Assembly: GCA_020137815.1 (NCBI GenBank)
Contig: CM035359.1
Coordinates: forward strand, 3,224,001-3,288,000
Length of the DNA stretch: 64,000 nt
Source of the DNA: Hormiphora californensis
Lineage: Eukaryota > Animalia > Ctenophora
Reading direction: 5' to 3'
A program made the translations under genes and the position numbers. This document shows, in pieces, positions 6,533 through 59,895 of this stretch; the first letter of the stretch is position 1, and each line of letters opens with the position of its first letter. The notes under the pieces are model-generated. The model saw only the letters and a list, made by a program, of their open reading frames with translations, was not told the origin of the DNA and made no database searches.

Positions 6533-7188
6533 CGCTCCCTCTCCTCCTATGACAAAACCCTGAAGTATAGGGCACGAAATCATCCTCGACGACTCTCCTC
6601 TCTCTCTCGATCCTCTCTCTCTCTCTCTCTCTCTCTCCTCTCTTCTTCCTTCTTTCTCCCTACTTTCTGCTTTCTTCCTACCTCTCCTTCCTCCCCCTCT
6701 CTTCCCTCCTCTCTCATCCTCTTTCCCCTTTTCTCTTTCCTCTCCTTCTCTCCTCTCTTCCCTCTCCTGTCCTCCCTCTTCTTTTTTTTCGGCTTCCTTC
6801 CCTCTCGTCTCAATAAACCCTAGCGAGGTACTTCTAGAGTAGTTGAAGGAGAATGCAATTAATACCCTTACCCATAAAGATCTCACTCCTCAACAACCCC
6901 TTTAATGGATTAAAATGAATTTTAAAGGAGCTATGAGAAGAATGAGAGGAAATTTTTTACATAAAAAAATCTTTTCCGTTTTAAATTTCGGCCCCTTTCC
7001 CGGGTGGGTTTTCCCCCTTTTTCCCTTTTCCCCCCTTTTTTTTCCCCCCTTTCCCTTTTTTTTTTCTTTTTTTTTTTCTTTTTCCTTTTTTCCCCTTTCC
7101 CCCTTTCCCCCTTTTCCCCCCCTTTCCCCCCCTTCTTTTCCCGCCCCCCCCCTTTTTTAAAAACCCCCAAGGGGAAAACAAAAAACCC

Positions 7189-7241
<53 letters not shown>

Positions 7242-8308
7242 TTTTTTTTTTTTATTTTTCCCCACCCCCCTTTCCCCCCCCGGGGGGGAAAAAAGAAAGC
7301 AGAAAAGGGGGGGACAGGAGAAAAGGGAAGAAAAGGGAAAAAAAAAAAGGAAAAGGGGGGGAGGATGGGAAAAAACCTTCCCCTCGAATAAAAAAAAAAA
7401 AAAATTTTAAAAGGTTTAAAAAAAATTTTTTTTTAAAAAAATTTTTTTTATACTTTTAAATTTATAGTATAAATTTAATATATATAAAAAATTTTTTTTT
7501 AAAAATTTAACGATTTTTTTTTTAAAATGCAATACAAAAGTAAAAAATGTAACCCATAAAAATTACGGAATGGGTTTAATTTAACCCCCCCCTCGGGGGG
7601 CATAACTGTACTGAAAAAACCCCCTTAAAGAAGGCGGAGGGGTAGTATTATATACAGTGATCATCGAGGTTAGAATGAATATGATGATAATAGCATCTCT
7701 CTATCTTTCTATCTCCTGTTATCTGTCTCTCTATCTCCATCGTTCTAGCTCTTTCTATCTCTCTCAGTTGTCTCCCAATATGTCTGTTGTCAGATTATAT
7801 GAACATGATGAGGATGCCAATAGGGGGACAAAGCTCATGTTATACCAGCATGATGATATTCGACTCTTGATTCTCGAAAAGTAACAATTTACTATAAAGG
7901 TACACCAATCACCTAGCCACACTTTCTATATCCCCAAGACGCAAGTAGACGCGGACGAATAGTATGTGTGAATTCACATATCATATTCAAGATTGCAAGA
8001 CTTAATTTAATCAGAAATAGTAAGGTGTGTGGAGTCCACACGTGTCGTCAATGTGCAGTTCACATATTCTGTTCTATTCCACATGTACATCATTAACTGA
8101 TGAACATATATTAATTCTCGTTAAGCTACTACAAGTTCAACCCAACACGATATATCAGATACAACGATGGCTGAAAAACAACCTCCGCTGAGATTCAACA
8201 ATACCCCCGCAGTTAGTGTCAATAAAAGCTAACTGCATGATCATATATAAATTCAATTCAATTCAAATATTAATTATGAACAATTAAAGTGATTAATATT
8301 TTATGTAA

Positions 8309-13475: not shown

Positions 13476-14903
13476 CACCGCTGTCAACTTTCCACTTTGA
13501 AGGATGGTAGTAGATGTTAGATAGAACACTAAATAAACACAATATACTTTCCCTTTAGGAAGAAAAAACAAAGTCAAAATATCCCTAAAACCCAAAGCTA
13601 AGGTGCAAGTTTTATCACACAGTATAAAAAGTCGCTTTAAAATATCAAGATTAATAAAGATATGACCCACCTTCCAGCACCATAGGGGGTTTTAAGGGCC
13701 CGGGGTTTCCCAAAATGCTATATCCCTGGGCCATTTAATATTGAGTACAGAACCCTTAATTAATTTTGGGGTTTAGCTTGCACCCCGGGGGGCACATTTT
13801 TGTTACCTTTTCAGGGAGTTTTTAAAGGGGAGAAAAAAGGGAGAGGAGAATTTTGAAAAGGGGGAGAGGAAAAGGGGAGGTGGGGCCCCTGAAGGGGGGT
13901 TTTGGGGGGGGGGGTTTTTTTTTTGGGGGCCAAAACCCCTTTTTTTTTCTCTTTTCACGGGGGGGCCCCCCTTTTTGGGGTTTTCCTTTTTTTACTTGGG
14001 GGGCGGATCTCCTTTTAGCCCCAAAATTTTTTATTTCCTAGGAGGAAAGCCCCAATTTTCTTTTTTTATTTTTTTCCCCCCCTTTTTTTCCCCCCCCCCC
14101 AAAGGGGGGGGGGGAGGGGGGGGGGGGGGGGGGCCCCCCCCCCCCCAAAAAAGGGGGGGAAAAAAAATTTTTTTTTCCCAAAATTTTTTTTTTCCCCCTT
14201 TTTTTTCCCCCCTTAAACCCCCCCCCTTTTTTTTTTTACCCAAAAAGGGGGGAATTTCCCCAATTTTTAAAAGGGAAAAGGGGGGGAAAAAAAAAAAAGG
14301 GGAAGAATAAAAAAAAGGAAGACCCCCCAAAAAAACTTTTGGGGGGCCCCTCTTCCCCCCCTCATCTATCAACTTTATTTGGTTCTCCAAAAAAATTAAA
14401 AATTAAAAATTCATGTAAGGGGGGGGGGGAAAAAAAAACAAAAAAAGAGGGATTTTTTTTCTAAAAAGGCAATGTTCCCCCAAATTTTATTTAAAATTTC
14501 CCCCAATGAAAAAAAAAGGAAATAGTGGACCCAACCCCTTTGGAAAAGGGACAAAAAAATCAAGTACTTTCCTAAAAAAAAAAACCCCTGGAAAACCCGT
14601 TTTCACGGTTTTTGTTTCGCCGTTGGTTTTTTTCCCCAGTCATTTTTTTGTTTCCGTCCTCCCTTTTTTCTTTTTTTCTTTCCCCTTTTTCGTTCCCTTT
14701 TCCCCCCCTTTTTTTTTCCCCCTTTTTTTTTATTTTTCCCCGTCTCAGATAGTCTCCATCTCTCCCTCTTCCTTTTCCCTCTCTCCAATTGTTCTCCCTT
14801 CTCTTCTATCTTTCCTCTTCCTCCGATAGCGTCTCAGTCATCTGCAGATCTGCGGCATCTAATCCTCTTGGGGCTTCTCTAATTCTCTCCCCTCTCTCTC
14901 TCT

Positions 14904-25919: not shown

Positions 25920-26555
25920 CCCCCGTCACCTTATCTCCAATTGTAACCCCTGTCACTTTGCCTCCCACTGTAACCCAGTCACCTTGTCATCCAATCAATC
26001 ATCCAGTCAGTGATCAGTCAGTGATCAGGTACTATCAGGAGGCAGGATAACCCGGGGAAGGGGGTGACCTAGGGAAGGGGGTGAGTTAGGAGGCAGGATG
26101 ACCTGGGGAAGGGAGGTGAGTTAGGGGTCAGGATGACCTGGGGAAGGGGGTGAGTTAGGGGTCAGGATAACCTGGGGAAGGGGGTGAGTTAGGGGTCAGG
26201 ATAACCTGGGGAAGGGGGTGAGTTAGGAGGCAGGATGACCTGGGGAAGGGGGGTGAGTTAGGAGGCAGGATGACCTAGGGAAGGGGGGTGAGTTAGGGGT
26301 CAGGATGACCTAGGGAAGGGGGGTGAGTTAGGAGGCAGGATGACCTGGGGAAGGGGGGTGAGTTAGGAGGCAGGATGACCTGGGGAAGGGGGTGAGTTAG
26401 GAGGCAGGATGACCTGGGGAAGGGGGGTGAGTGAGGGCCTGTCACCTTATATCCCTTTGTCACCCCTGTCACCTTATCTCCAATTGTAACCCCTGTCACT
26501 TTGCCTCCCATTGTAACCCCTGTCACTTTGCCTCCCACTGTCTCCCATGTCACTG
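25920..26555. repeat. Compound minisatellite: 27-bp units flanking a G-rich 32-33-bp array (26040-26432)
   Basis: gtcaccttatctccaattgtaacccct-type units, and about 11 copies of gttaggaggcaggatgacctggggaaggggggtga. Confidence 0.9.
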
Positions 26556-43618: not shown

Positions 43619-44892
43619 AAAGTAATACAAGGTTTTTAATTGTTTACTAATAGTTTCATGCTTTCGCAATCGTCAGAACAATGCTTGCAAATTTTAAAAC
43701 GTTCAACTTCCTCTTCGACTCCTTCATCAAACCGTTTGTTGAAGTGATGCCAGGTGTCCTCTCCGGTGGGGACATTTGTTAAGAAGCTCCCCTTTCTTGT
43801 TAATTAGTCCTTTCCTCGTTAATATTGCGAACTTTTCGGCCAGGCATAGAGAGCAGGTGATGTTGCCTGGGCGGTATGGTGGAGCTTTGGCGATGATCTG
43901 CCATGTTATGTCATACGTTATCTGTCTGTCATGGAGGCTCCAAACGAGTTTGGAGAGTTCTGTCGCTGTCCTGTGTTTGTCGTGTCTTATTGTCGCCATG
44001 TGACCATTGAACCTGGTTTTGAATGACCCACCCGTCATTCCCACATATTTCTGTTCTACCCCGTCGCTGTGTTTGATTAGTGCTTCGTAGACTACACCGG
44101 ATTTCAGGCATGTGTTTCCCACAGGACAGTTTTCTGGAATTCTGCAGTTACACAGGCGTTCACTCTGTTTTTCCTCATCCTCCGCTTTCTTGAGTATCGC
44201 TTTGTTGTGAGACTTCACTATCCCGTCCATGTTTATCATACATGAGTACGAAAGTTTTATTGTTTTCTTGTTAAACAATGCGTTGAATGGATGTTGTGGT
44301 GGGAAGTGCAGTCTGACCAATTCAAAGAATCGTTCTCCGATGTTAGTGGCGACGTTCTTGCTGAAGGGTGGATTATACCAGATGATTTTTCTTTGCCTTT
44401 TTCTGTTTTTGGGTTTTCCGGTTCTTCCTCTTTGTTCGTACATTAACTCCTTGCTGTATCCTGCTGTTTTCAAGGCTGCCTGGTATTCCTCTTTTGCTCC
44501 TTCGAATTCCTCCTCGGTACTGGATATGCAGCTAAGGCGTTTTTGTATCGATGCTGGAATGTTTTTTAGTATCGATGATGGGTGGTTGGAAGCACGTTTC
44601 ACGTAGGCGATGTTGCTGTTGGGTTTTTTGTACGGTTTGTAGCTTCCGTTTATCGCTGATAGTGTTACATCCAGTATGTTGACTATCTTTCCTGTTTGTT
44701 CCACTGTTATCTTTAATTGATTGTTTTTGAAGATCTTGTGGAGCGCTTTTGTTATTTTGGTTATCTCAGGACCGTTGCTGTTTTCTACGTAGATTAGGCC
44801 GTCGTCGCGGTACAGTCCACAGTTGCTTCCCTTGTGATTCATTTCCAGGTACTTTTGCACCTGCCCTAGTAGGAAGAGTCCTGTTAGATCCG
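43619..44892 (-). mobile_element. 5'-truncated Penelope-like retroelement (RT C-terminus/thumb plus GIY-YIG endonuclease)
   Basis: ORF 43727-44860 with GLYRDDGL, WYNPPFS, IKLSYSCM, CNC-x5-CP, VVY..YVG..FKTR. Flanked by 10-bp direct repeat cctagatttc (43609-43618, 44893-44902). Confidence 0.93.
43639..43682 (-). ncRNA. Minimal type I hammerhead ribozyme in the Penelope 3' pLTR
   Basis: Minus strand reads auuguu CUGACGA uugc-gaaa-gcau GAA acuauuaGUA aacaau: 6-bp stem I, conserved core, quasi-palindromic stem III, GUA cleavage triplet. Confidence 0.8.
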
Positions 44893-45193
44893 CCTAGATT
44901 TCGAAATCCAGACCTCTGATTGGCTCGTGCACCGAAAAATTGCCAAAAATGAAGCCTGTAAGTGTACATAAATCCCATAATCCATTAAGCTTGTTATAAT
45001 GGTTAACCTTTCTTATATTCACCTTTTATCTTCACATAAAATCCTCGCTCAGATATGTGGTTGGGGGAGATTTTAAAGCTTTGGATCTCCCTTTTCTAAA
45101 AACGCATACTACATGTGTATGTCCACTCTTCCCATTTTGCTGATGTTATAGATTTTACAACAGCTTACTGTAAAGTGTTGAGTGATCTTAGTA

Positions 45194-46588: not shown

Positions 46589-49500
46589 ATGGAACTGTAC
46601 AGCTTTTTCCCGCGGAGTGAGCTGATCACCCAGGCAGCAATTAACTTCCAGTTTAAGAAGCGTTGTCTAGGCTCAGGGGCTGGTGATAATGAGGCTACGG
46701 AAAACAATCGGGATGCGCTCAGGTGAGATAAACATGGGGAGTGAGAATACGGTATCGGTTCGCGCGATTACCGTAATGTAATGCCATTATAACCGTTTTT
46801 TTCACTCCAAGCACCACTGAAAGTTTGGTGCCATGTCACCAAAGATAAAGTAAGACTGGCTTATATTTTCATATATAAATGTTAAACACATTATAATATT
46901 GAACACATACCCCATGCTCCACTGATTATTTGAGACATTTTATACATGTTGAGTGGGAAGACGACACCACGGCGTCGATGGAGAAGAGAGAGAGAGAGAG
47001 AGTTCGTATTTTGTATGCTACCTGGACGCAGATTGATTTTTATATTTTTCTCCGCCTCGATCAAATTTCCTCGCAATTTATTTGCAGCTAGGGGCCAGGG
47101 TCACACGTTGATTGCATCAGCTCTAGCCAGTACTTAGTTTCCAACCATTCGATTGGGAGTCCTTCACCTACAGTTATCGAGAATCTGGCTTTTGTGGTGC
47201 TTTCTGAGCTGATTATACTTATCGTGCAGTACTAATATAATAAGTACCTATCCCATAATAATTTGATCCATTCCGAATCATGTTTCGAATTAGCTTCCAT
47301 ATTGAATGTATCAAGCTAGTAACTGCTACTTCTCGAGAAGAACTGAACACACAGTCGACCTTCCACAATCTTCTACAGAGAGAATTCTCTCTGTAGGTAG
47401 ATTGTGGAAGGTCGACTGTGTGTTCAGTTCATTAAGAAACTGTAGCTGATAAGGCATGAATCATGAAACCGTATTACGTACGCTCATAATCTCTTTTTCT
47501 CTATCTCTTTCTCTCCCTCGGTAATACAGTCAGTGCCTTGTTCTTCGTACTAACATTTCTGTATGACCTGTGTCCTGCAGCAGCTCCTGAGCTGCATATG
47601 CCCTTGTCTAATCCCAATGGCGGGAAACAGTCGTGACCTGACCTGTGAACATCAGGTTCAGTTCACGGCTATTTACCCCTGAGACCTGAGATTTCAGGGT
47701 TATTCTTGGCTATTCCTAGAATATTTCCTGAAATCTCAGAAAATATAGCGGTCACTGGACCCTGAGATCTTAGGTCTCAGAGGTAAATGGCCTTGACTTG
47801 AACCTGAGTTCAGGCACGACTGTTTCCCACAATGGCCAATACCCTTTCTGTGATTATTTTATATGTCATGGTCTGTATGGCGGCGCCATACCCATTTGAT
47901 TCTCAAATTGAGACGTGCGCTCAGATGGGTCGCGGCGCCAGACAGGTCATGGTATACTCGCCGCGATCGGTAGCTCAATTGCCTTCATCTAGGACATGAT
48001 TTTATGTTCTAACCCTATGGCCGCCGGTTCATAGCAAAAAACCGATTCATCTTCCGTTCATTCCGATTCAGTTAGAAATAAATGAGAGGGAGATCAAGTT
48101 GTTCACTGTTCATAGTTCCCTGCAGCTTCCCGTAGCCCCCTTCACTGATTATATTTGTGATACATGGAGAGTGTTGCTTTCTTGTTTAATTATTCTTTGA
48201 AACCACAGAGATCGCATAATGTTTTTGAATAAGTAACGTTACGTGGCAAGAGAAAGATTGTGTTATGTATGCTGAGCATAATGTTTATCGAAGGATGAGA
48301 ATGCCTAATAAGTGGCGTTGTTTTTTCAAGCTGTAGAGAAGAAGAATGAGCGAGAATTATGGATCGCTTTAGGAAAAACAAAGAAGAGAGATATCAAACT
48401 ATATTATATCTACCATATAATAAACTTGTTGCTGTATACAACTCCATATAATGCTCATCACTTCTTGAAGGGGCCATCTAGGAAGGAGCTGAGAGGTTAG
48501 AAGGAGAGCTGCTGTGTTTGTTTTAGCTAGTGCATAGCTCTCCCCCGCGACTGTGTTGTACTCCGTCGTGTTTTACTTGCATCGCATTCCTTCTTTCAGA
48601 CATGGGCATATTCAGGTAATATACTATTGGTTACCATTGGTTACCATTTGTTACTATTGGTTACTATTGGTTACCATTGGTTACTATTAGTTACTATTGG
48701 TCACTATTGGTTACCATTGGTTACTATTGGTTACTATTGGTTACTATTAGTTACTATTGGTTACTATTAGTTACTATTAGTTACTATTGGCTACCATTGG
48801 TTACTATTAGTTACTATTGGTTACCATTGGTTACTATTAGTTACTATTGGTTACCATTGGTTACTATTAGTTACTATTGATTACCATTGGTTACTATTGG
48901 TTACTATTGGTTACTATTGGTTACTTTTAGTTTCTATTGGTTACTATTGGTTACTATTGGTTACCATTAAAATGCTATGTTTGGTATCCATGGTGGCGAT
49001 GAATAAAAGGACTATAACCGACTATTTGATTTATCATAAACAAATTTGACAGTGACGTTGACGATGTAATTTTAAATATAAAAGGGATTCAGGAAGTCAT
49101 ATCTTCCTTGACCCCCATGTCTCCCCTCATCATGCATCCATCCCCACCCCTGACCTCTCTCTCCTCTTCTTTCTCTTTCCTCTCTTTTTCTCTCTTCTCT
49201 CCCTTTTCCCTTTTTCCTCTTCCCCCTCTCACTTCTCTTTTCTCTCTCTCCCACCCTCTCTTCTCCCCTTTCTCTCTCCCCTCTCTCTATCCCTCGCCCG
49301 GGTTGAGTAAGCAACTCATGCTCCTCTCTCCTCGGGCCTTCCTCTCCGATTTCTTCTCTCCCCTACTTTCTTCCTGGTCGGTTTTTTTTTGATTTGTTGT
49401 TTTCTTTCTTTTTTTCCCCCCAAAAATCAAAGGGCTCCTTTTGTTTTCTTTTTTTTTTTTCTTTTTAAAATTTTTTTTTTGTTAACTTCTTCCTTTCGGG

Positions 49501-52500
49501 TCTTTTTTACCCTCCCCTCCCTCTCTTTTTCTTTTTTTCCCACGGGGGGGTTTTCCTTTTTTCTCCCCTTTTCCTTTTTCCTTTCGAAAAATTTTTTTAA
49601 AATTTCCCCTTTCCCCTTTTTCCTAGTTTTTTCTTTGCGAGAGGATCTTACGCCCTTTTCTGCTCCCTTCTAAACCCCCTTTTACCCCATCACCCTGGTT
49701 TTTTAGGGTCCCGAAACGTCTTCTTCCCCCGTCCCCTCTTTTTTTCCGGTTCTTTCTTCTCCTTGGTTTTGTTGTTTTATGAAGCCAACCTTTTCCCCCT
49801 CGGGGGGGTTTTAACCCCCCCCTCTTGTTTACTTCGGACCCCCCTCTTTTGTTACCCCATTTTTTTTTTTTAAAAATTCACCTTTTTTACGGGGACAACT
49901 TTAATGGTTTTTATTAAAATACTAGGTTTAAAACCCTTTAAAACAAACCCTTCTAAAAACCCCCCCCCTACTGCAGGTACAACCTACATCGCCCCTCTCC
50001 ATCTAAACCCCCCTACTGCCAGGTACAACCTACATCGCCCTCTCCATCTAAACCCCCCCTACTGCAGGTACAACCTACATCGCCCTCTCCATCTAACCCC
50101 CCCCCCTACTGCAGGTTACAACCTACATCGCCCTCTCCATCTAAACCCCCCCCCTACTGCAGGTACAACCTACATCGCCCTCTCCATCTAAACCCCCCCT
50201 ACTGCAGGTACAACCTACATCGCCCTCTCCATCTAAACCCCCCCTACTGCAGGTACAACCTACATCGCCCTCTCCATCTAAACCCCCTTCTTCACATCAG
50301 GTACAACCTACATCGCCCTCTCCATCTAAACCCCCCCTACTGCAGGTACAACCTACATCGCCCTCTCCATCTAAACCCCCCTACTGCAGGTACAACCTAC
50401 ATCGCCCTCTCCATCTAAACCCCCCCCTACTGCAGGTACAACCTACATCGCCCTCTCCATCTAAACCCCCCCTACTGCAGGTACAACCTACATCGCCCTC
50501 TCCATCTAAACCCCCCCTACTGCAGGTACAACCTACATCGCCCTCTCCATCTAAACCCCCCCCTACTGCAGGTACAACCTACATCGCCCTCTCCATCTAA
50601 ACCCCCCCTACTGCAGGTACAACCTACATCGCCCTCTCCATCTAAACCCCCCCCTACTGCAGGTACAACCTACATCGCCCTCTCCATCTAAACCCCCCCT
50701 ACTGCAGGTACAACCTACATCGCCCTCTCCATCTAAACCCCCCCCTACTGCAGGTACAACCTACATCGCCCTCTCCATCTAAACCCCCCCTACTGCAGGT
50801 ACAACCTACATCGCCCTCTCCATCTAAACCCCCCCCTACTGCAGGTACAACCTACATCGCCCTCTCCATCTAAACCCCCCCTACTGCAGGTACAACCTAC
50901 ATCGCCCTCTCCATCTAAACCCCCCCTACTGCAGGTACAACCTACATCGCCCTCTCCATCTAAACCCCCCCCCCTACTGCAGGTACAACCTACATCGCCC
51001 TCTCCATCTAAACCCCCCCCTACTGCAGGTACAACCTACATCGCCCTCTCCATCTAAACCCCCCCTACTGCAGGTACAACCTACATCGCCCTCTCCATCT
51101 AAACCCCCCCCCCTACTGCAGGTACAACCTACATCGCCCTCTCCATCTAAACCCCCCCTACTGCAGGTACAACCTACATCGCCCTCTCCATCTAAACCCC
51201 CCCCTACTGCAGGTACAACCTACATCGCCCTCTCCATCTAAACCCCCCCTACTGCAGGTACAACCTACATCGCCCTCTCCATCTAAACCCCCCCTACTGC
51301 AGGTACAACCTACATCGCCCTCTCCATCTAAACCCCCCCTACTGCAGGTACAACCTACATCGCCCTCTCCATCTAAACCCCCCCTACTGCAGGTACAACC
51401 TACATCGCCCTCTCCATCTAAACCCCCCCTACTGCAGGTACAACCTACATCGCCCTCTCCATCTAAACCCCCCCTACTGCAGGTACAACCTACATCGCCC
51501 TCTCCATCTAAACCCCCCCTACTGCAGGTACAACCTACATCGCCCTCTCCATCTAAACCCCCCCCTACTGCAGGTACAACCTACATCGCCCTCTCCATCT
51601 AAACCCCCCCTACTGCAGGTACAACCTACATCGCCCTCTCCATCTAAACCCCCCCCTACTGCAGGTACAACCTACATCGCCCTCTCCATCTAAACCCCCC
51701 CTACTGCAGGTACAACCTACATCGCCCTCTCCATCTAAACCCCCCTACTGCAGGTACAACCTACATCGCCCTCTCCATCTAAACCCCCCCTACTGCAGGT
51801 ACAACCTACATCGCCCTCTCCATCTAAACCCCCCCTACTGCAGGTACAACCTACATCGCCCTCTCCATCTAAACCCCCCCCTACTGCAGGTACAACCTAC
51901 ATTGCCCTCTCCATCTAAACCCCCCCTACTGCAGGTACAACCTACATTGCCCTCTCCATCTAAACCCCCCCCTACTGCAGGTACAACCTACATCGCCCTC
52001 TCCATCTAAACCCCCCCTACTGCAGGTACAACATACATCGCCCTCTCCATCTAAACCCCCCCTACTGCAGGTACAACCTACATCGCCCTCTCCATCTAAA
52101 CCCCCCCTACTGCAGGTACAACCTACATCGCCCTCTCCATCTAAACCCCCCCTACTACAGGTACAACCTACATCGCCCTCTCCATCTACATGTGCGCTAT
52201 AGGGTTCTGTGGTGGAAATGTTCTTGTTTACACAATAGGAAAGGTAAATATGACTTGACAGTTTTGTCAGGCCAATATGCTCTGCAGACCACGGTTCTCG
52301 CACGCTCGCATTCTCCGTCAAGCCAATGCTCTGATAGTGACAGTTGATTGCAGCAGAATTGTTTTAAACTTGTGACTTTCCGGTATTCTTAAATCTAAGA
52401 TAGGAATTATTTCTTCCTTTCAAGTGGTTATAATACAGTTCATTCAACGTCATATTTTTGAAGTGATGCCAATACAAATGTTATTTGCTTATCAAAATCA

Positions 52501-55500
52501 AATCATATATTTGCTTATCAACCCCCAACCCCCTATAGACCCTAGCAACCGACATTACTTTTCCAGATCAACCTTGAATGACCTAATTGTTTTTCCAAAC
52601 TCCAACCACCTAACATGTATCAACCCCTCAGCAACCACCTAGTTACCACCTAGTAACCCCCTAGTTATCTCTTAGTAACCCCCTAGTAATCCCCTAGCAA
52701 CCCCCTAGTAACCCCTTAGCAACCCCCTATCCCCAGGCAACGGAATGGAACCCCTCAAAGTCTGGTGCTGCAAATGGAGTCATTGGGTTCTTTATAGGAA
52801 TCAGTGGGTTTATTGGCAGCTTCATTTGCACGGTGTACGTGAACCCAAACAACGTCCAAACGCAACGTGTATTTGATCCAGCTTACCCTGAACTAGGTAA
52901 TTAATGTAGTTAATGCAGTTTTTTAACGTTACATGAAATTAGTTAGATGACTCATTACGCTCCCTCACACTTCTCCGACGACTGAGCATATTTTTCCCAC
53001 AAGATCAACCACGTGATACCGTCGTGATTACCTGACATCCTGCACCGCACTGGCCCTCTCGCTCGCTTCGCTCGGAAGCTCTTTAGAGCGAAGCGATATC
53101 GAGAGTGGAACCCCCGGCACCCAACTAACTAACCCAGGAAACGACCGAACCGGGTTTTTTTCCACCGAACCGAACCGAACCGAATTTGAAAAACTTTTTT
53201 ACCGAACCGAACCGAACCGAACCGAACCGAATTTCGGTAACCGAACCGAACCGAACCATACAAAACTTTTTCTGTATAAATGTTTCTCTAAAAAGTCATG
53301 GAGAGCACCGATCAAGGTATTGAGAATCATTCTCTGAAATTTTGTTAAAAAATGTTTGAAAAAATTTCAAAGTCAATTTTGTGAAAAAAATTTCAAAGTC
53401 AATTTTATCGTAAATTTTCTATGTCAATTTTTGCGTACGAATCGTGTTTCGAATCGGCAATGCTATACGGGAATGGTATTGCTAATTAGCAGGATTAAAC
53501 GAACCATAAATCGTGTCTCTCTAAATTTCCTAATTAGATTTGATGGGGGATCACGTATCAGCACAATCCATCTCGGACCCACTAATTACCAACATCACTC
53601 GCGTTTAGCATTGTCGATTAGAAACACGATTCGTATACCATAATTTACTTAAAATATTTTCCACAAAAAAAATTTCACAAAATTTCAGGTAATGATTCTC
53701 AATAACTTGATCGATGCTCTCCATGAATTTTTAGAGAAACATTTAATTTTGTGAAAAAACTTAGTAAAATATTTCAAAGTAAATTTCGGAAAAAAAATTA
53801 TATGTCAATTTTGCCGTACGAATCGTGTTGCGAATCGGTGATGCTATGCGGCAGTGCTCTCGCTAATTAGCAGGATTTATTGAAACATGAATCGTTTCCC
53901 CTAAACTTCCTAATATAATTAGATTTGATGGGGGATCACGTATCAGCATAATCCATCTCGGACCCACTAATTAGCAACATCACTCCCGCTTAGTAATACC
54001 GATTCGAAAGACGATTCGTACGCAAAAATTGACATAGAAAATTTTCCATAAAATTGACTTTGAAATATTTTCCAAACTTTTTTACAAAATTTCAGAGAAT
54101 GATTCTTAACACCGTGATCGGTGCTCTCCATGAATTTTTTGAAAAAAAAGTTTCTGAATTTGTTGACCCTCTCATGAGGACACGATTCGATGGGAAGTCA
54201 GGTATCAAATCAATCCATATCGAACCCGCTAACTAGCGAAATCATTTCCACATAGCACCACCGATTCGAAATAAGGTTAATACGGCGAAATTGACATTGA
54301 AATCCATACAATTTTCGTGAAATAATTGAAAAATTTTGCATGAAAAAGCCCGATTTCTGGGCATTTTTTGATCAAAAAATTCGGTGGTTCGGCCAAAATT
54401 TCCTACCGAACCGAACCGAACCGAACCGCCCAAAAAACACCGAATTTCCGAACCGAACCGAACCGAACCGAATATTCGGTCGCTTCCTGAACTAACCCCC
54501 TACCCCCTCCCAGGTAATGTGACGATATTCACCGACCCTGCAATCTACGAGAAGGTGCCCTGGCTCTGGGTCATCTTTGCAGTCATGTTCACCGCCCTCT
54601 TCCTACCATCCATTATCATTGTCAGGTAACTTATCAGGCACCAGCTTCCAAATACCACCATGGCATCTCCGTGCACGTGTGGTTTATCGGTTCTTCAAAG
54701 CTCAGATATAGCACCCAATCATTTGCTCCGGAGTAATTGTTTCCAATTAAAATTATTCCTACACTCTAAACTCCTATTAATTACAAATAGCTAATCATTC
54801 CTATTGTTAAACACTCTAAACTCCTATTAATTTCAGGTCGCCCACACCAGATGAGGTGTGTGAGATGACCCCGCTGTGTGATGAGAGTTTTGAGGTCAAC
54901 AAACTCACCTCAGACCACAACTACTCGGTAGGTTGTTACCAGGAAGCGACCGAATATTCGGTTCGGTTCGGTTCGGTTCGGAAATTCGGTGTTTTTTGGG
55001 CGGTTCGGTTCGGTTCGGTTCGGTGGAAAATTTTGGCCGAACCACCGAATTTTTTGTTCAAAAAATGGCCAAAAATCGGGCTTTTTCAGCCATAATTTTT
55101 TCAATTATTTTACAATTTTTATAGATTTCAATGTCAATTTCGCCGTATGAACCGTATCTCGAATCGGTGGTGCTATGTGGAAATGATTTCGCTAGTTAGC
55201 GGGTTCGATATGGATTGATTTGATACGTGACTTCCCGTCGAATCGTGTCCTCATGAGAGGGTCAACAAATTCAAAAACTATTTTTTCAAAAAGTTCATGG
55301 AGAGCACCGATCAAGGTGTTAAGAATCATTCTCTGAAATTTTGTAGAAAAGTTTGGAAAATATTTCAAAGTCAATTTTGTGAAAAAATTTTCAAAGTCAA
55401 TTTTATGGAAAATTTTCTATGTCAATTTTTGCGTACGAATCGTGTTTCGAATCGGTATTGCTAAGCGGGAGTGATGTTGCTACATAATTAGTGGGTCCGA

Positions 55501-57841
55501 GATGGATTATGCTGATACGTGATCCCCCATCAAATCTAATTAGGAAGTTTAGGGGAAACGATTCATGTTTCGATAAATCCTGCTAATTAGCGAGAGCACT
55601 GCTGCATAGCATCACCGATTCGCAACACGATTCGTACGGCAAAATTGACATATAATTTTTTTTACGAAATCGACTTTTGAAATATTTTACAAAGTTTTTT
55701 TCACAAAATTAAATGTTTCTCTAAAAATTCATGGAGAGCATCGATCAAGGTATTGAGAATCATTCCCAGAAATTTTGTGAAAATTTTTTTTGTGAAAAAT
55801 ATTTTAAGTAAATTCTGGTATACGAATCGTGTTTCGAATCGACAATGCTAAACGGGAGTGATGTTGGTAATTAGTGGGTCCGAGATGGATTGTGCTGATA
55901 CGTGATCCCCCATCAAATCTAATTAGGAAATTTAGAGAGACACGATTCATGGTTCGTTTAATCCTGCTAATTAGCAATACCATTCCCGTATAGCATTGCC
56001 GATTCGAAACACGATTCGTACGCAAAAATTGACATAGAAAATTTTCGATAAAATTGACTTTGAAAATTTTTTCACAAAATTGACTTTGAAATTTTTCCAA
56101 ACTTTTTTTAACAAAATTTCAGAGAATGATTCTCAATACCTTGATCGGTGCTCTCCATGACTTTTTAGAGAAACATTTATACAGTAAAAGTTTGGTATGG
56201 TTCGGTTCGGTTCGTTTACCGAAATTCGGTTCGGTTCGGTTCGGTTCGGTTCGGTAAAAAAGTTTTTCAAATTCGGTTCGGTTCGGTTCGGTGGGAAAAA
56301 ACCCGGTTCGGTCGTTTCCTGGTTGTTACCCTTAGTTACCCCTTAGTTACCCCTTAGTTACCCCTAGTTACCCCCTATGTTCCTCCCCAGTTACCCCTAG
56401 TTACCCCATGAAGTTACTAAACTCACCTCTCAGGTAATTGAGATGTTGAAAACTTGTAAGTTCTACGTTCTCTACGTTATTGTAATGACCATGAGTCTAG
56501 CACTCCTAACTGGAACAGAGATCTTCAAGGAACTAGCTAAGGATACCATCGCAGATGACCATGTGAGTATAAATTACACATGGTACGATGTGAGCTGTAG
56601 TTCCTGTTCGCATGGCAGCTAGTTCTTCAAGATTAAAGAAGAGTTCAAGCTTTCTGCCTAGCACCAAACATGAACTGGTTACACCACTTTCTCCCCCCTT
56701 TTCAGTTTTTGAATGTTATTGGTGCGGTGCTAGCCATCTGCAATGCCTTCGGTCGACTGCTATGGGGAGTCGTCATGGACAAAATAGGTAATTAATACGT
56801 ATCAATTACCTCTAAAATAGCTTGTGAATATTAAATCCCAGCTAATTCATGAAATTCAGAATATTGATGCCACTGCTGCACAACATACTGCCAATTTTGT
56901 GGCATCAGTTTTCAAGACAGCTTCTGAACAAGTCCAATAAACTCACACAATACTTTCAGGTGCCCGGTGGGCTCTATTCTCTGCCTTTTTGATAATAACC
57001 CCTGCCATTATATTGCTGTATTGGACACGGTTGATGCCCTGGCCATACTTGATCAATGTTTGTGTTGTGGCATTCGCTTCTGGGATCTTTACAGGTTAGC
57101 TATATAGGGAGAGGAGTTTTCTTTAAAATATAGGTATCCCCCGGTATGCCGGTTAGAAAAGTACCACCGAGTATTCCGGTAAATCGGGGTCCGCCTGTAC
57201 TCAGTACTGGGAGATTTGGTAAAAATGTGTTAGAAAGCTGTTTTGGAGAAGATAATCTCGGTGAAACCCGGAGCAGTGTCTCTTATTACAGTCAGACCCC
57301 GATTTAGGGACACCCTCGGGGGAAAGGCTCTTGTCCACTAAATCGGGGTCAAATAAGGTTAATTTCCTATATCGGGGGAAAAAAATCCTGTCCCTAAATC
57401 GGGGTGCCACTAAATCGGGGGGCCCTAAATCAGGGTCCGACTGTACTAACTAACATAACTAACATAAACAACTCTCTCTCTCTTCCAGGAATAGCCCCTG
57501 CACTAGTTGAGTTGTTTGGCCACAGAGATATCTCTCTAAAATACAGCATCTGTCTGAGTGGGGAACTGTTTGGATGTCTCCTGTTTTATCTTCTATCAAT
57601 TGGCAGTGTCACACTCTATAGTGATCTAGTGAGTTTTGAACTTTTAATAACCCCTCACATCTGCTGAAGATGTGTCCTCGAAATTTTATTTAGTGAATCC
57701 ATTTCAGCTATAGCAGCTGAAGATGTGTTCTCGAAATCTTTGGAGACATCCAAATAATACAGCAAATTCTTTCAGGTATTTTTGATATTGCTGGCTGTAC
57801 CGTGTGGGGTGAGCTGTATCGCGGGCCTCATTTTCATTTGA
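46589..57841 (+). CDS. MFS transporter, oxalate:formate antiporter (OFA)-like family
   Basis: Phase-compatible exons 52161-52243, 52737-52896, 54514-54625, 54837-54927, 56434-56562, 56706-56787, 56960-57094, 57489-57628 and 57776-57841. Motifs EWNPSKSGAANG, YVNPNN, EMLKTCKFY, IADDHFL, NAFGRLLWGVVMDKIG, ELFG. Candidate first exons 46589-46722 and 48602-48615. TM1-3 exons are not resolvable and probably lie in the garbled 49.1-49.95 kb region. Confidence 0.85.
47340..47430. repeat. 91-bp near-perfect palindrome
   Basis: gaactgaacacacagtcgaccttccacaatct...agattgtggaaggtcgactgtgtgttcagttc, centred on gaattc. Confidence 0.85.
48622..48968. repeat. 10-bp minisatellite (ggttactatt/ggttaccatt) directly after a 5' splice site
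   Basis: About 35 copies beginning a few nt after CAG|gtaata. Confidence 0.95.
49960..52188 (+). repeat. 45-bp tandem array (~49 copies) derived from an intron/exon junction of the MFS gene
   Basis: Unit ctaaaccccccctactgcag|gtacaacctacatcgccctctccat. The last unit runs into the coding exon 52161-52243. Confidence 0.95.
53135..54489 (+). mobile_element. Non-autonomous hAT element, 1355 bp, intronic
   Basis: TIR caggaaacgaccgaa / ttcggtcgcttcctg, perfect 8-bp TSD aactaacc, subterminal (ccgaa)n. Confidence 0.92.
54940..56321 (-). mobile_element. Second copy of the same hAT element, inverted, 1382 bp, intronic
   Basis: Same TIRs reversed, perfect 8-bp TSD gttgttac. Confidence 0.92.
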
Positions 57842-58189: not shown

Positions 58190-59895
58190 CAAGAAATCAG
58201 CTACTGACAAGAAATCAGCTACTGATAAGAAACCAGCTACTGATAAGAAATCAGCTACTGATAAGAAATCAGATACTGATAAGAAATCAGTTACTGATAA
58301 GAAATCAGCTACTGATAAGAAACCAGTTACTGATAAGAAACCAGCTACTGATAAGAAATCAGTTACTGATAAGAAATCAGCTACTGATAAGAAACCAGCT
58401 ACTGATAAGAAATCAGTTACTGATAAGAAACCAGCTACTGATAAGAAATCAGCTACTGATAAGAAATCAGTTACTGATAAGAAACCAGTTACTGATAAGA
58501 AATCAGCTACTGATAAAAAACCAGCTACTGATAAGAAATCAGCTACTGATAAGAAACCAGCTACTGATAAGAAACCAGCTACTGATAAGAAACCAGCTAC
58601 TGATAAGAAATCAGCTACTGATAAGAAATCAGTTACTGATAAGAAATCAGTTACTGATAAGAAATCAGTTACTGATAAGAAATCAGCTACTGATAAGAAA
58701 CCAGCTACTGATAAGAAATCAGCTACTGATAAGAAATCAGCTACTGATAAGAAATCAGCTACTGATAAGAAATCAGTTACTGATAAGAAACCAGCTACTG
58801 ATAAGAAATCAGTTACTGATAAGAAATCAGCTACTGATAAGAAATCAGCTACTGATAAGAAATCAGCTACTGATAAGAAACCAGTTACTGATAAGAAATC
58901 AGCTACTGATAAGAAACCAGCTACTGATAAGAAATCAGTTACTGATAAGAAACCAGCTACTGATAAGAAATCAGCTACTGATAAGAAATCAGCTACTGAT
59001 AAGAAATCAGTTACTGATAAGAAATCAGCTACTGATAAGAAATCAGCTACTGATAAGAAATCAGCTACTGATAAGAAATCAGCTACTGATAAGAAATCAG
59101 CTACTGATAAGAAATCAGCTACTGATAAGAAATCAGCTACTGATAAGAAATCAGCTACTGATAAGAAATCAGCTACTGATAAGAAACCAGCTACTGATAA
59201 GAAACCAGCTACTGATAAGAAACCAGATACTGATAAGAAATCAGCTACTGATAAGAAATCAGTTACTGATAAGAAATCAGTTACTGATAAGAAATCAGTT
59301 ACTGATAAGAAATCAGTTACTGATAAGAAATCAGCTACTGATAAGAAACCAGCTACTGATAAGAAATCAGCTACTGATAAGAAATCAGCTACTGATAAGA
59401 AATCAGCTACTGATAAGAAATCAGTTACTGATAAGAAACCAGCTACTGATAAGAAATCAGTTACTGATAAGAAATCAGCTACTGATAAGAAATCAGCTAC
59501 TGATAAGAAATCAGCTACTGATAAGAAACCAGTTACTGATAAGAAATCAGCTACTGATAAGAAATCAGCTACTGATAAGAAATCAGCTACTGATAAGAAA
59601 CCAGTTACTGATAAGAAATCAGCTACTGATAAGAAATCAGCTACTGATAAGAAATCAGCTACTGATAAGAAATCAGCTACTGATAAGAAATCAGCTACTG
59701 ATAAGAAATCAGCTACTGATAAGAAATCAGTTACTGATAAGAAATCAGCTACTGATAAGAAATCAGCTACTGATAAGAAATCAGCTACTGATAAGAAATC
59801 AGCTACTGATAAGAAACCAGTTACTGATAAGAAATCAGCTACTGATAAGAAACCAGCTACTGATAAGAAACCAGCTACTTATAAGAAACCAGCCT
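58190..59895 (+). repeat. 18-bp minisatellite (tgataagaaa(t/c)cag(c/t)tac), ~95 copies
   Basis: Exact 18-bp period without indels. Two stop-free + frames (TDKKSA and IRNQLL). Confidence 0.97.

What the first reader, a model, noticed from the sequence alone, without database searches (positions are those of the whole stretch)
49960..52243. ~49 tandem copies of a complete 3' splice site: only the last gives protein (possible recursive-splicing ratchet)
Seen: the 45-bp unit is branch-like ctaaac + C-tract + tactgcAG + the first 28 nt of the TM4 exon, joined through tcta microhomology. Using any upstream acceptor reads GT ACA ACC TAC ATC GCC CTC TCC ATC TAA, a stop. Only the final unit, which uniquely has ctactacag, continues ...ATC TAC ATG TGC to the donor at 52243, in frame with the downstream MFS exons. 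Every unit is AG|GTACAA, so splicing to it regenerates a possible donor. Established: AG|GT ratchet points define recursive splicing, and tandem duplication of AGGT is a proposed intron-gain route. Inference: the gene must either skip ~48 decoy acceptors, splice recursively, or be tuned by NMD according to copy number.
Basis: partly seen in the sequence, partly recalled or inferred. Interest (0 to 1): 0.85.

Follow-up and report, generated by a model that had tools for sequence, protein, structure and literature searches.

The report
Comb-jelly splice-acceptor "mirage" minisatellite
A 45-base piece spanning an intron end and the start of the next exon of a predicted comb-jelly membrane-transporter gene stands 49 times in a row; the one RNA contig found holds a single copy, so the 48 extras are likely skipped as intron, a repeat type already described in lancelets.

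Summary
The array is real. It has 49 units, all with CAG, and is present in DNA runs from two samples of two studies. None of the 48 upstream acceptors reads through to the donor at 52244. The host is a ctenophore MFS gene (100% over 53 aa to a Pleurobrachia bachei gene model) with an intact 331-codon frame from the last unit on. The only RNA contig holds one unit and is spliced normally, but it comes from another haplotype and has depth 2.9. Recursive splicing is not supported: the regenerated donor matches U1 at 4 of 9 positions (real donors 6-8), 6 of 9 exons of this gene begin with GT anyway, and a related ctenophore has GA there. This is a 'mirage' minisatellite, known from amphioxus, with human donor-side analogues; this scan noted the same kind on other genomes (27 word hits). 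One wrinkle: read contigs suggest a different, probably ancestral acceptor at the array's entry, so the working acceptor would be an array-derived type. The copy number of 49 and the left edge are unconfirmed, and about 100 upstream codons are unreadable in the window.

The parts
48600..48615 (+). First coding exon (ATG at 48602, reads MGIFR), donor at 48616
   Evidence: Same N-terminus as gene models P0001 and P0005; not covered by RNA here
49150..49961 (.). Unreadable, homopolymer-rich stretch after a CT microsatellite; should hold residues 6-105 of the protein, the donor of the array's intron and the array's left edge
   Evidence: No intact copy of these residues in the window; homopolymer load 0.2-0.47 against 0-0.1 upstream. 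A degraded match to the last missing exon at 49636-49708 beat 20 of 20 shuffles in one test but not in a second: suggestive only
49962..52188 (+). 45-bp minisatellite, 49 copies: 17 nt of intron end (branch-like CTAAA, C-tract, CAG) plus 28 nt of exon head
   Evidence: unit contigs in 5 of 5 DNA runs laid
49977..52160 (+). 48 decoy exon heads; each leads to a premature stop if its acceptor is used
   Evidence: 46 of 48 TAA at codon 9, 2 of 48 frameshifted, 0 of 48 open to the donor
50253..50300 (+). Unit 7, a 48-bp variant whose acceptor resembles the entry-type acceptor seen in read contigs; likely an older unit type
   Evidence: a 61- or 60-letter contig with 3 other letters and 3 gaps, as expected for this type, in X1, X4, X5, X6 (letters not printed, so the match is inferred)
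52144..52160 (+). Last acceptor, the only productive one (TACAG variant; branch-like CTAAA at -17)
   Evidence: CTAAA also stands at -18 and -14 in two other acceptors of this gene
52161..52243 (+). True 83-nt exon (about the fourth transmembrane helix, by inspection), donor AAG|GTAAAT
   Evidence: RNA contig joins an upstream exon end to 52161 and skips 493 nt GT..AG to 52737
52737..52896 (+). Downstream MFS exon
54514..54625 (+). Downstream MFS exon; begins with GTAATG
54837..54927 (+). Downstream MFS exon; begins with GT
56434..56562 (+). Downstream MFS exon; begins with GTAATT, the same six bases as two real donors of this gene
56706..56787 (+). Downstream MFS exon
56960..57094 (+). Downstream MFS exon; begins with GT
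57489..57628 (+). Downstream MFS exon
57776..57841 (+). Last coding exon with stop codon; begins with GT

Best explanation
The end of one intron and the first 28 bases of the next exon of a predicted ctenophore MFS transporter gene are repeated 49 times head to tail, likely through replication slippage and unequal exchange, and the spliceosome likely uses only the last acceptor, so the other 48 copies would be removed with the intron. Shown: anatomy, presence in two samples, stop codons in all decoys, intact downstream frame, one correctly spliced RNA contig from another haplotype. Inferred: the last acceptor wins because only it lies one short exon (83 nt) from a good donor (exon definition); occasional use of the nearest decoys would give stop-containing RNA removed by nonsense-mediated decay; the decoys stay intact because units are homogenised together with the working acceptor, which lies inside the repeat; an entry-type acceptor seen in reads is the ancestral one, and unit 7 is an intermediate form.
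For: RNA contig of run X7 (182 nt): 16 letters that read as the end of the preceding exon join 52161 directly, then a GT..AG skip to 52737; no RNA cover over 52100-52133. Array contigs in S1 and S2; S2 differs from the window at 3 sites in this exon and 3 in the next, 6 of 6 synonymous. 331 codons intact, 70% identity to two orthologues. 40 of 48 units identical outside the C-tract. Amphioxus BflGb6 has the same intron-end plus exon-head anatomy and splices normally (PMC3087553); human donor-side arrays use the authentic site, sometimes with the next two (PMC1557585).
Against: The RNA evidence is 1 contig at depth 2.9 from a marine metagenome library; it carries 2 of the S2-type letters, not the window's, and whether its source has the array is unknown. 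Contigs drop rare forms, so leakage cannot be seen. Introns of this gene without inserts are short (143-493 nt), a size at which pairing across the intron (recalled textbook knowledge) would favour the first decoy. The upstream donor is unreadable in the window. Copy number is not confirmed.
Confidence: 0.75

Rival explanations
1. Leaky array: a sizeable share of transcripts uses decoy acceptors and is destroyed by NMD, so array length tunes transporter level.
For: All 48 decoys keep CAG and a branch-like motif of the kind used by real acceptors of this gene. Human 6-16 and CBS arrays use the two nearest pseudo-sites. All decoy products carry a stop.
Against: No RNA contig with unit sequence among 2 contigs laid from X7, although depth is far too low to exclude it. 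Amphioxus mirages gave no aberrant mRNA. No sign of selection on length was tested.
Confidence: 0.12
2. Recursive rescue: the upstream donor first joins an early decoy, and the regenerated GT at the exon head then removes the rest of the array as a second intron (zero-length exon).
For: Every unit is AG|GT. It is the only productive route if an upstream decoy is chosen first, since the unit has no other GT. The first decoy may lie only about 250 nt from the donor (suggestive).
Against: Regenerated donor matches U1 at 4 of 9 positions; 9 of 9 real donors score 6-8, and 67% of 6,945 GT sites in the window reach 4. 6 of 9 exons start with GT, 2 with better donor-like heads. A related ctenophore transcript has GA at this junction (L001). 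Fly recursive sites lie in the longest 3% of introns, with segments nearly all over 1 kb (PMC6110457).
Confidence: 0.05
3. The array allele is a null or near-null allele, and the spliced RNA comes from alleles without the array.
For: RNA contig is not from the window's haplotype. The X2 contig that joins unique DNA to the exon head could be an array-free allele rather than the array's entry.
Against: Array in two samples with different exon haplotypes, at a floor of 22 units per exon copy in X6; no stop or frameshift in 331 codons; 6 of 6 differences synonymous.
Confidence: 0.06
4. The array is an assembly artefact.
For: Its left edge borders unreadable sequence, and units 1-4 carry indel errors. 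Depth in X2 suggests fewer than 49 copies.
Against: Unit-junction contigs at high depth in 5 of 5 DNA runs laid, from two studies. Only the exact length is open.
Confidence: 0.02

Closest known systems
Amphioxus 'mirage' minisatellites (globin BflGb6 and BflGb9, Adh3, troponin C, PGBD5); PMC3087553 and PMC3902484, passages read
   Same: Tandem copies of an intron end plus exon head (BflGb6), splice signals kept, units homogenised with boundaries left out, normal mRNA reported.
   Different: Ctenophore, not chordate; 49 copies against 3-6 for BflGb6; 48 of 48 decoys keep the AG; each decoy carries a stop at the junction.
Human donor-side minisatellites: F7 intron 7 (37 bp), CBS intron 13, 6-16, lamin B2, PDGF; PMC1557585, abstract and passages
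   Same: First or last unit is the authentic splice site, the rest are identical pseudo-sites; the site nearest the exon body is used, sometimes with the next two.
   Different: Those repeat the donor; this repeats the acceptor.
Recursive splicing ratchet points in Drosophila; PMC6110457, passages; PMC8605326, short abstract only
   Same: AG directly followed by GT.
   Different: Weak regenerated donor, 45-nt spacing, intron of about 2.5 kb, GT not kept in a relative.
Dual-specific AGGT sites in the UBC tandem array; PMC10809524, abstract only
   Same: AGGT in each unit of a tandem repeat.
   Different: UBC units are whole coding monomers and splicing varies their number; here the units hold a stop, and splicing between units would only shorten the intron.

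Membership tests
Mirage minisatellite | Tandem repeat whose unit spans an intron-exon boundary of the host gene | tested here: met
   17 nt intron end plus 28 nt exon head, 49 copies; exon confirmed by RNA contig and orthologues
Mirage minisatellite | Unit of minisatellite size (10-160 bp in the amphioxus cases) | tested here: met
   44-48 bp, mode 45; range
Mirage minisatellite | Many units keep the splice signal | tested here: met
   49 of 49 CAG
Mirage minisatellite | Normal mRNA is still made | tested here: inconclusive
   1 RNA contig, one unit, correctly spliced, but another haplotype and depth 2.9
Mirage minisatellite | Length instability between alleles or cells | tested here: inconclusive
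   C-tract and unit variants in all runs; depth-based copy estimates too rough to compare
Mirage minisatellite | Concerted evolution inside the array, boundaries left out | tested here: met
   40 of 48 units identical outside the C-tract; last acceptor has a private letter; a different acceptor type adjoins unique DNA (its place at the left edge is inferred)
Recursive-splicing ratchet point | Acceptor AG directly followed by GT | tested here: met
   49 of 49 units; but also 6 of 9 ordinary exons of this gene
Recursive-splicing ratchet point | Strong regenerated donor | tested here: not met
   4 of 9 U1 matches against 6-8 for 9 real donors; 67% of all GT sites reach 4 (simple match count against a recalled consensus, no species-trained score)
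Recursive-splicing ratchet point | Very long intron, segments over 1 kb | tested here: not met
   Units 45 nt apart; intron at most 3.5 kb (48616-52160), about 2.5 kb if the upstream exon ends near 49708; criterion
Recursive-splicing ratchet point | Motif conserved in relatives | tested here: not met
   L001, a related ctenophore transcript, has GA at this exon start; 1 relative only, its intron unseen
Recursive-splicing ratchet point | Intermediates or lariats at the site | not testable with these tools
   Only assembled contigs were served; no nascent RNA

The most novel reading that the evidence does not exclude
In this short-intron animal the upstream donor first pairs with the ancestral acceptor left at the array's entry, and the weak GT regenerated at the exon head then removes the whole 2.2-kb array in a second, recursive step; a minisatellite would thus have created an obligatory zero-length exon in a ctenophore.
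Probability: 0.05. Interest if true: 0.7.

Novelty: new member of a known kind. Interest (0 to 1): 0.22.

Why it matters
As it stands it extends mirage minisatellites to ctenophores; no such report turned up in three library searches (open-access library only). It is also a natural test of how an early-branching animal with short introns picks among 49 near-identical acceptors: correct splicing of the array allele would point to exon definition. If the entry-type acceptor is ancestral, it shows a working splice site being replaced by a repeat-derived one. It is not a new mechanism.

Tried and rejected
No whole genome is held, so no genome-wide count of such arrays. Run X9 laid 0 contigs: no evidence either way. 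An 862-nt X6 contig first looked like an array-free allele; its unaligned part lies downstream (minus strand, loose end behind 52254), so that reading was dropped. Exact search of metagenome contigs for the exon head: 0 hits; the protein search gave 1 locus of 99 candidate stretches, a spliced transcript of another ctenophore. Placing the missing exons in the unreadable stretch: 1 of 4 protein-profile tests beat all 20 shuffles, 0 of 5 DNA tests was significant. Degraded extra units at 49710-49962: score 20.8 against 18.2 +/- 2.5, not significant. The RNA loose end and the entry-type acceptor have no true match in the window. Exon 48600-48615 as the exon directly upstream was rejected by the RNA loose end and the gene models. 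One search had one exon end off by one base; one search is the corrected run. The TAA count was off by one; one search is the corrected count. My motif screen of 13 arrays missed the main array itself, so it is not a valid census. A search for papers on tandem acceptor choice gave only the F7 paper. No note of this scan exists for this genome.

Full report
Observation. Tandem Repeats Finder gives one array at 49962-52188, period 45, 49.0 copies, 96% matches. Cutting it at the exon head gives 49 starts, 49977 to 52161; 49 of 49 follow CAG. Outside the C-tract (5-10 C, mode 7), 40 of the 48 upstream units are identical. 46 of 48 decoys read a TAA at codon 9; the two others carry a one-base insertion and stop after 70 and 24 codons; only the last unit is open to the donor at 52244. 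Its TACAG acceptor is unique in the window.

Host gene. The next exon (53 aa) is 100% identical to gene model P0001, which the collection names as Pleurobrachia bachei, 81% to Bolinopsis microptera and 74% to Mnemiopsis leidyi. The two full-length orthologues pass the Pfam MFS_1 cut-off; the partial model P0005 had no hit (2 of 3). Nine exons from 52161 to 57841 give 331 codons and one terminal stop, 232 of 330 residues identical to each orthologue. The first coding exon is 48600-48615. Residues 6-105 have no readable copy in the window; they should lie in the homopolymer-rich stretch 49150-49961, but only 1 of 9 alignment tests supported a placement (49636-49708). The array's left edge and the intron's donor are therefore not readable.

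Is it real? Nine runs were listed, 7 holding part of the stretch; I laid 7 of the 9. All 5 DNA runs laid hold unit contigs at depths far above the exon tail: in X2 the core word has depth 900 against 32-35 for rare contigs; in X6 the summed peak is 428,675 against 625.6, at least 22 units per exon copy even if overlap inflates the sum 31-fold. These are rough; they show tens of copies in two samples of two studies and do not confirm 49. Sample S2 differs from the window at 3 sites in the true exon and 3 in the next; 6 of 6 are synonymous. S1 may be the window's own source and is then no independent support; S2 has another haplotype.

RNA. Run X7 laid 2 contigs; one (182 nt, depth 2.9) joins 16 letters that fit the end of the preceding exon directly to 52161 and then skips 493 nt, GT..AG, to 52737. 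It holds one unit. It carries 2 letters of the S2 type, so it is not the window's allele, and its source may or may not have the array. X9 laid nothing. This supports normal splicing of the gene but does not show it for the array allele, and cannot show rare forms.

Acceptor types. One X2 contig (67 nt, depth 32.4) joins unique DNA with a canonical CTGAC branch motif and a pyrimidine tract to the exon head. Window unit 7 (50253-50300) has nearly the same tract behind the array's CTAAA; contigs of its expected shape occur in X1, X4, X5, X6, and an X5 loose end shows the entry-type tract behind a unit. I infer a series from entry type to unit-7 type to common type to the last acceptor. The working acceptor lies between two exon heads, inside the repeat, so it would be homogenised with the decoys; selection on it could keep all decoys intact without any function for them. 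The alternative, that the X2 contig is an array-free allele, cannot be excluded from contigs.

Recursive splicing. After splicing to any unit the regenerated donor is TTG|GTACAA, 4 of 9 matches to the U1-pairing consensus (recalled); the gene's 9 donors score 6-8, and 67% of 6,945 GT sites in the window reach 4. 6 of 9 exons begin with GT, one with the same six bases as two real donors, so AG|GT is ordinary here. The T is the third base of a glycine codon, and a related ctenophore transcript (L001, 70-80% alike) has A there. Fly recursive sites lie in the longest 3% of introns, with segments nearly all over 1 kb and conserved motifs (PMC6110457, passages). In its favour: it is the only productive route if an early decoy is chosen, and this gene's plain introns are short (143-493 nt). 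I give it 0.05.

Mechanism. Most likely the last acceptor is chosen because it alone sits 83 nt from a good donor; the next three would make exons of 128, 173 and 218 nt with a stop and are the likeliest leaks. This is inferred from the anatomy and from known cases, not measured.

Known kinds. The scan's earlier notes (27 word hits in at least 8 genomes, 8 shown) gave me the name 'mirage' and the papers; I checked the papers, not those notes' own claims. Ebner et al. describe tandem copies of the intron 3' end plus exon 5' part in amphioxus BflGb6, with normal splicing, length differences between haplotypes and homogenisation that leaves out the boundaries (PMC3087553, 6 passages); PMC3902484 (1 passage) lists Adh, troponin C and PGBD5. 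The Adh3 paper and the intron-gain proposal by Rogers I know only through these. Human donor-side arrays are reviewed in PMC1557585 (abstract and 10 passages). PMC10809524 and PMC8605326: abstracts only. PMC5954066 (ABCA7 VNTR): search listing only. No supplements were read; Additional file 4 of PMC3087553 bears on how many amphioxus units keep the AG. Searches for a ctenophore case found none, in an open-access library only.

Verdict. A real feature and a new member of a known kind: an unusually long and clean acceptor-side mirage in a ctenophore. Interest 0.22.

Noticed in passing
window 26065-26436: 35-bp array, 10.8 copies; on the minus strand each unit reads like an acceptor (CTAAC, C-tract, CAG|GT), on the plus strand it holds GTGAGT. 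No adjoining exon was evident by eye, so it may be a second mirage or chance.
   Followed up: partly
window 53134-54489 and 54938-56322: Two copies of a roughly 1.36-kb element with ACCGA-rich inverted ends, in opposite orientation, in two introns of the same MFS gene; looks like a non-autonomous DNA transposon (seen; label recalled, not tested).
   Followed up: no
window 58191-59893: 18-bp array, 94.6 copies, just behind the MFS stop codon; open in three frames, one reading KKSATD repeats for 601 codons. Probably a plain minisatellite.
   Followed up: no
window about 7001-7500, 13501-14500, 49400-49960: Three homopolymer-rich unreadable stretches, each near a CT/GA microsatellite: a recurring sequencing failure in this assembly that can hide exons.
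   Followed up: partly
window 52624-52729, 56325-56407, 48622-48968: 10- and 11-bp simple repeats within this gene's introns; two lie just upstream of acceptors and add extra TAG trinucleotides there. The 11-bp type is very deep in the DNA runs.
   Followed up: no
window 43727-44893, minus strand: 388-codon open frame that looks like the end of a reverse transcriptase plus a GIY-YIG-type nuclease, as in Penelope-like elements (label recalled, not tested).
   Followed up: no
proteins P0001 and P0005: Two partial P. bachei gene models for this gene, differing from each other and at a few residues from the window; two haplotypes or a faulty older model.
   Followed up: partly
L001 1-1710: Full-length spliced transcript of the orthologous transporter from another ctenophore in a metagenome collection.
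   Followed up: partly
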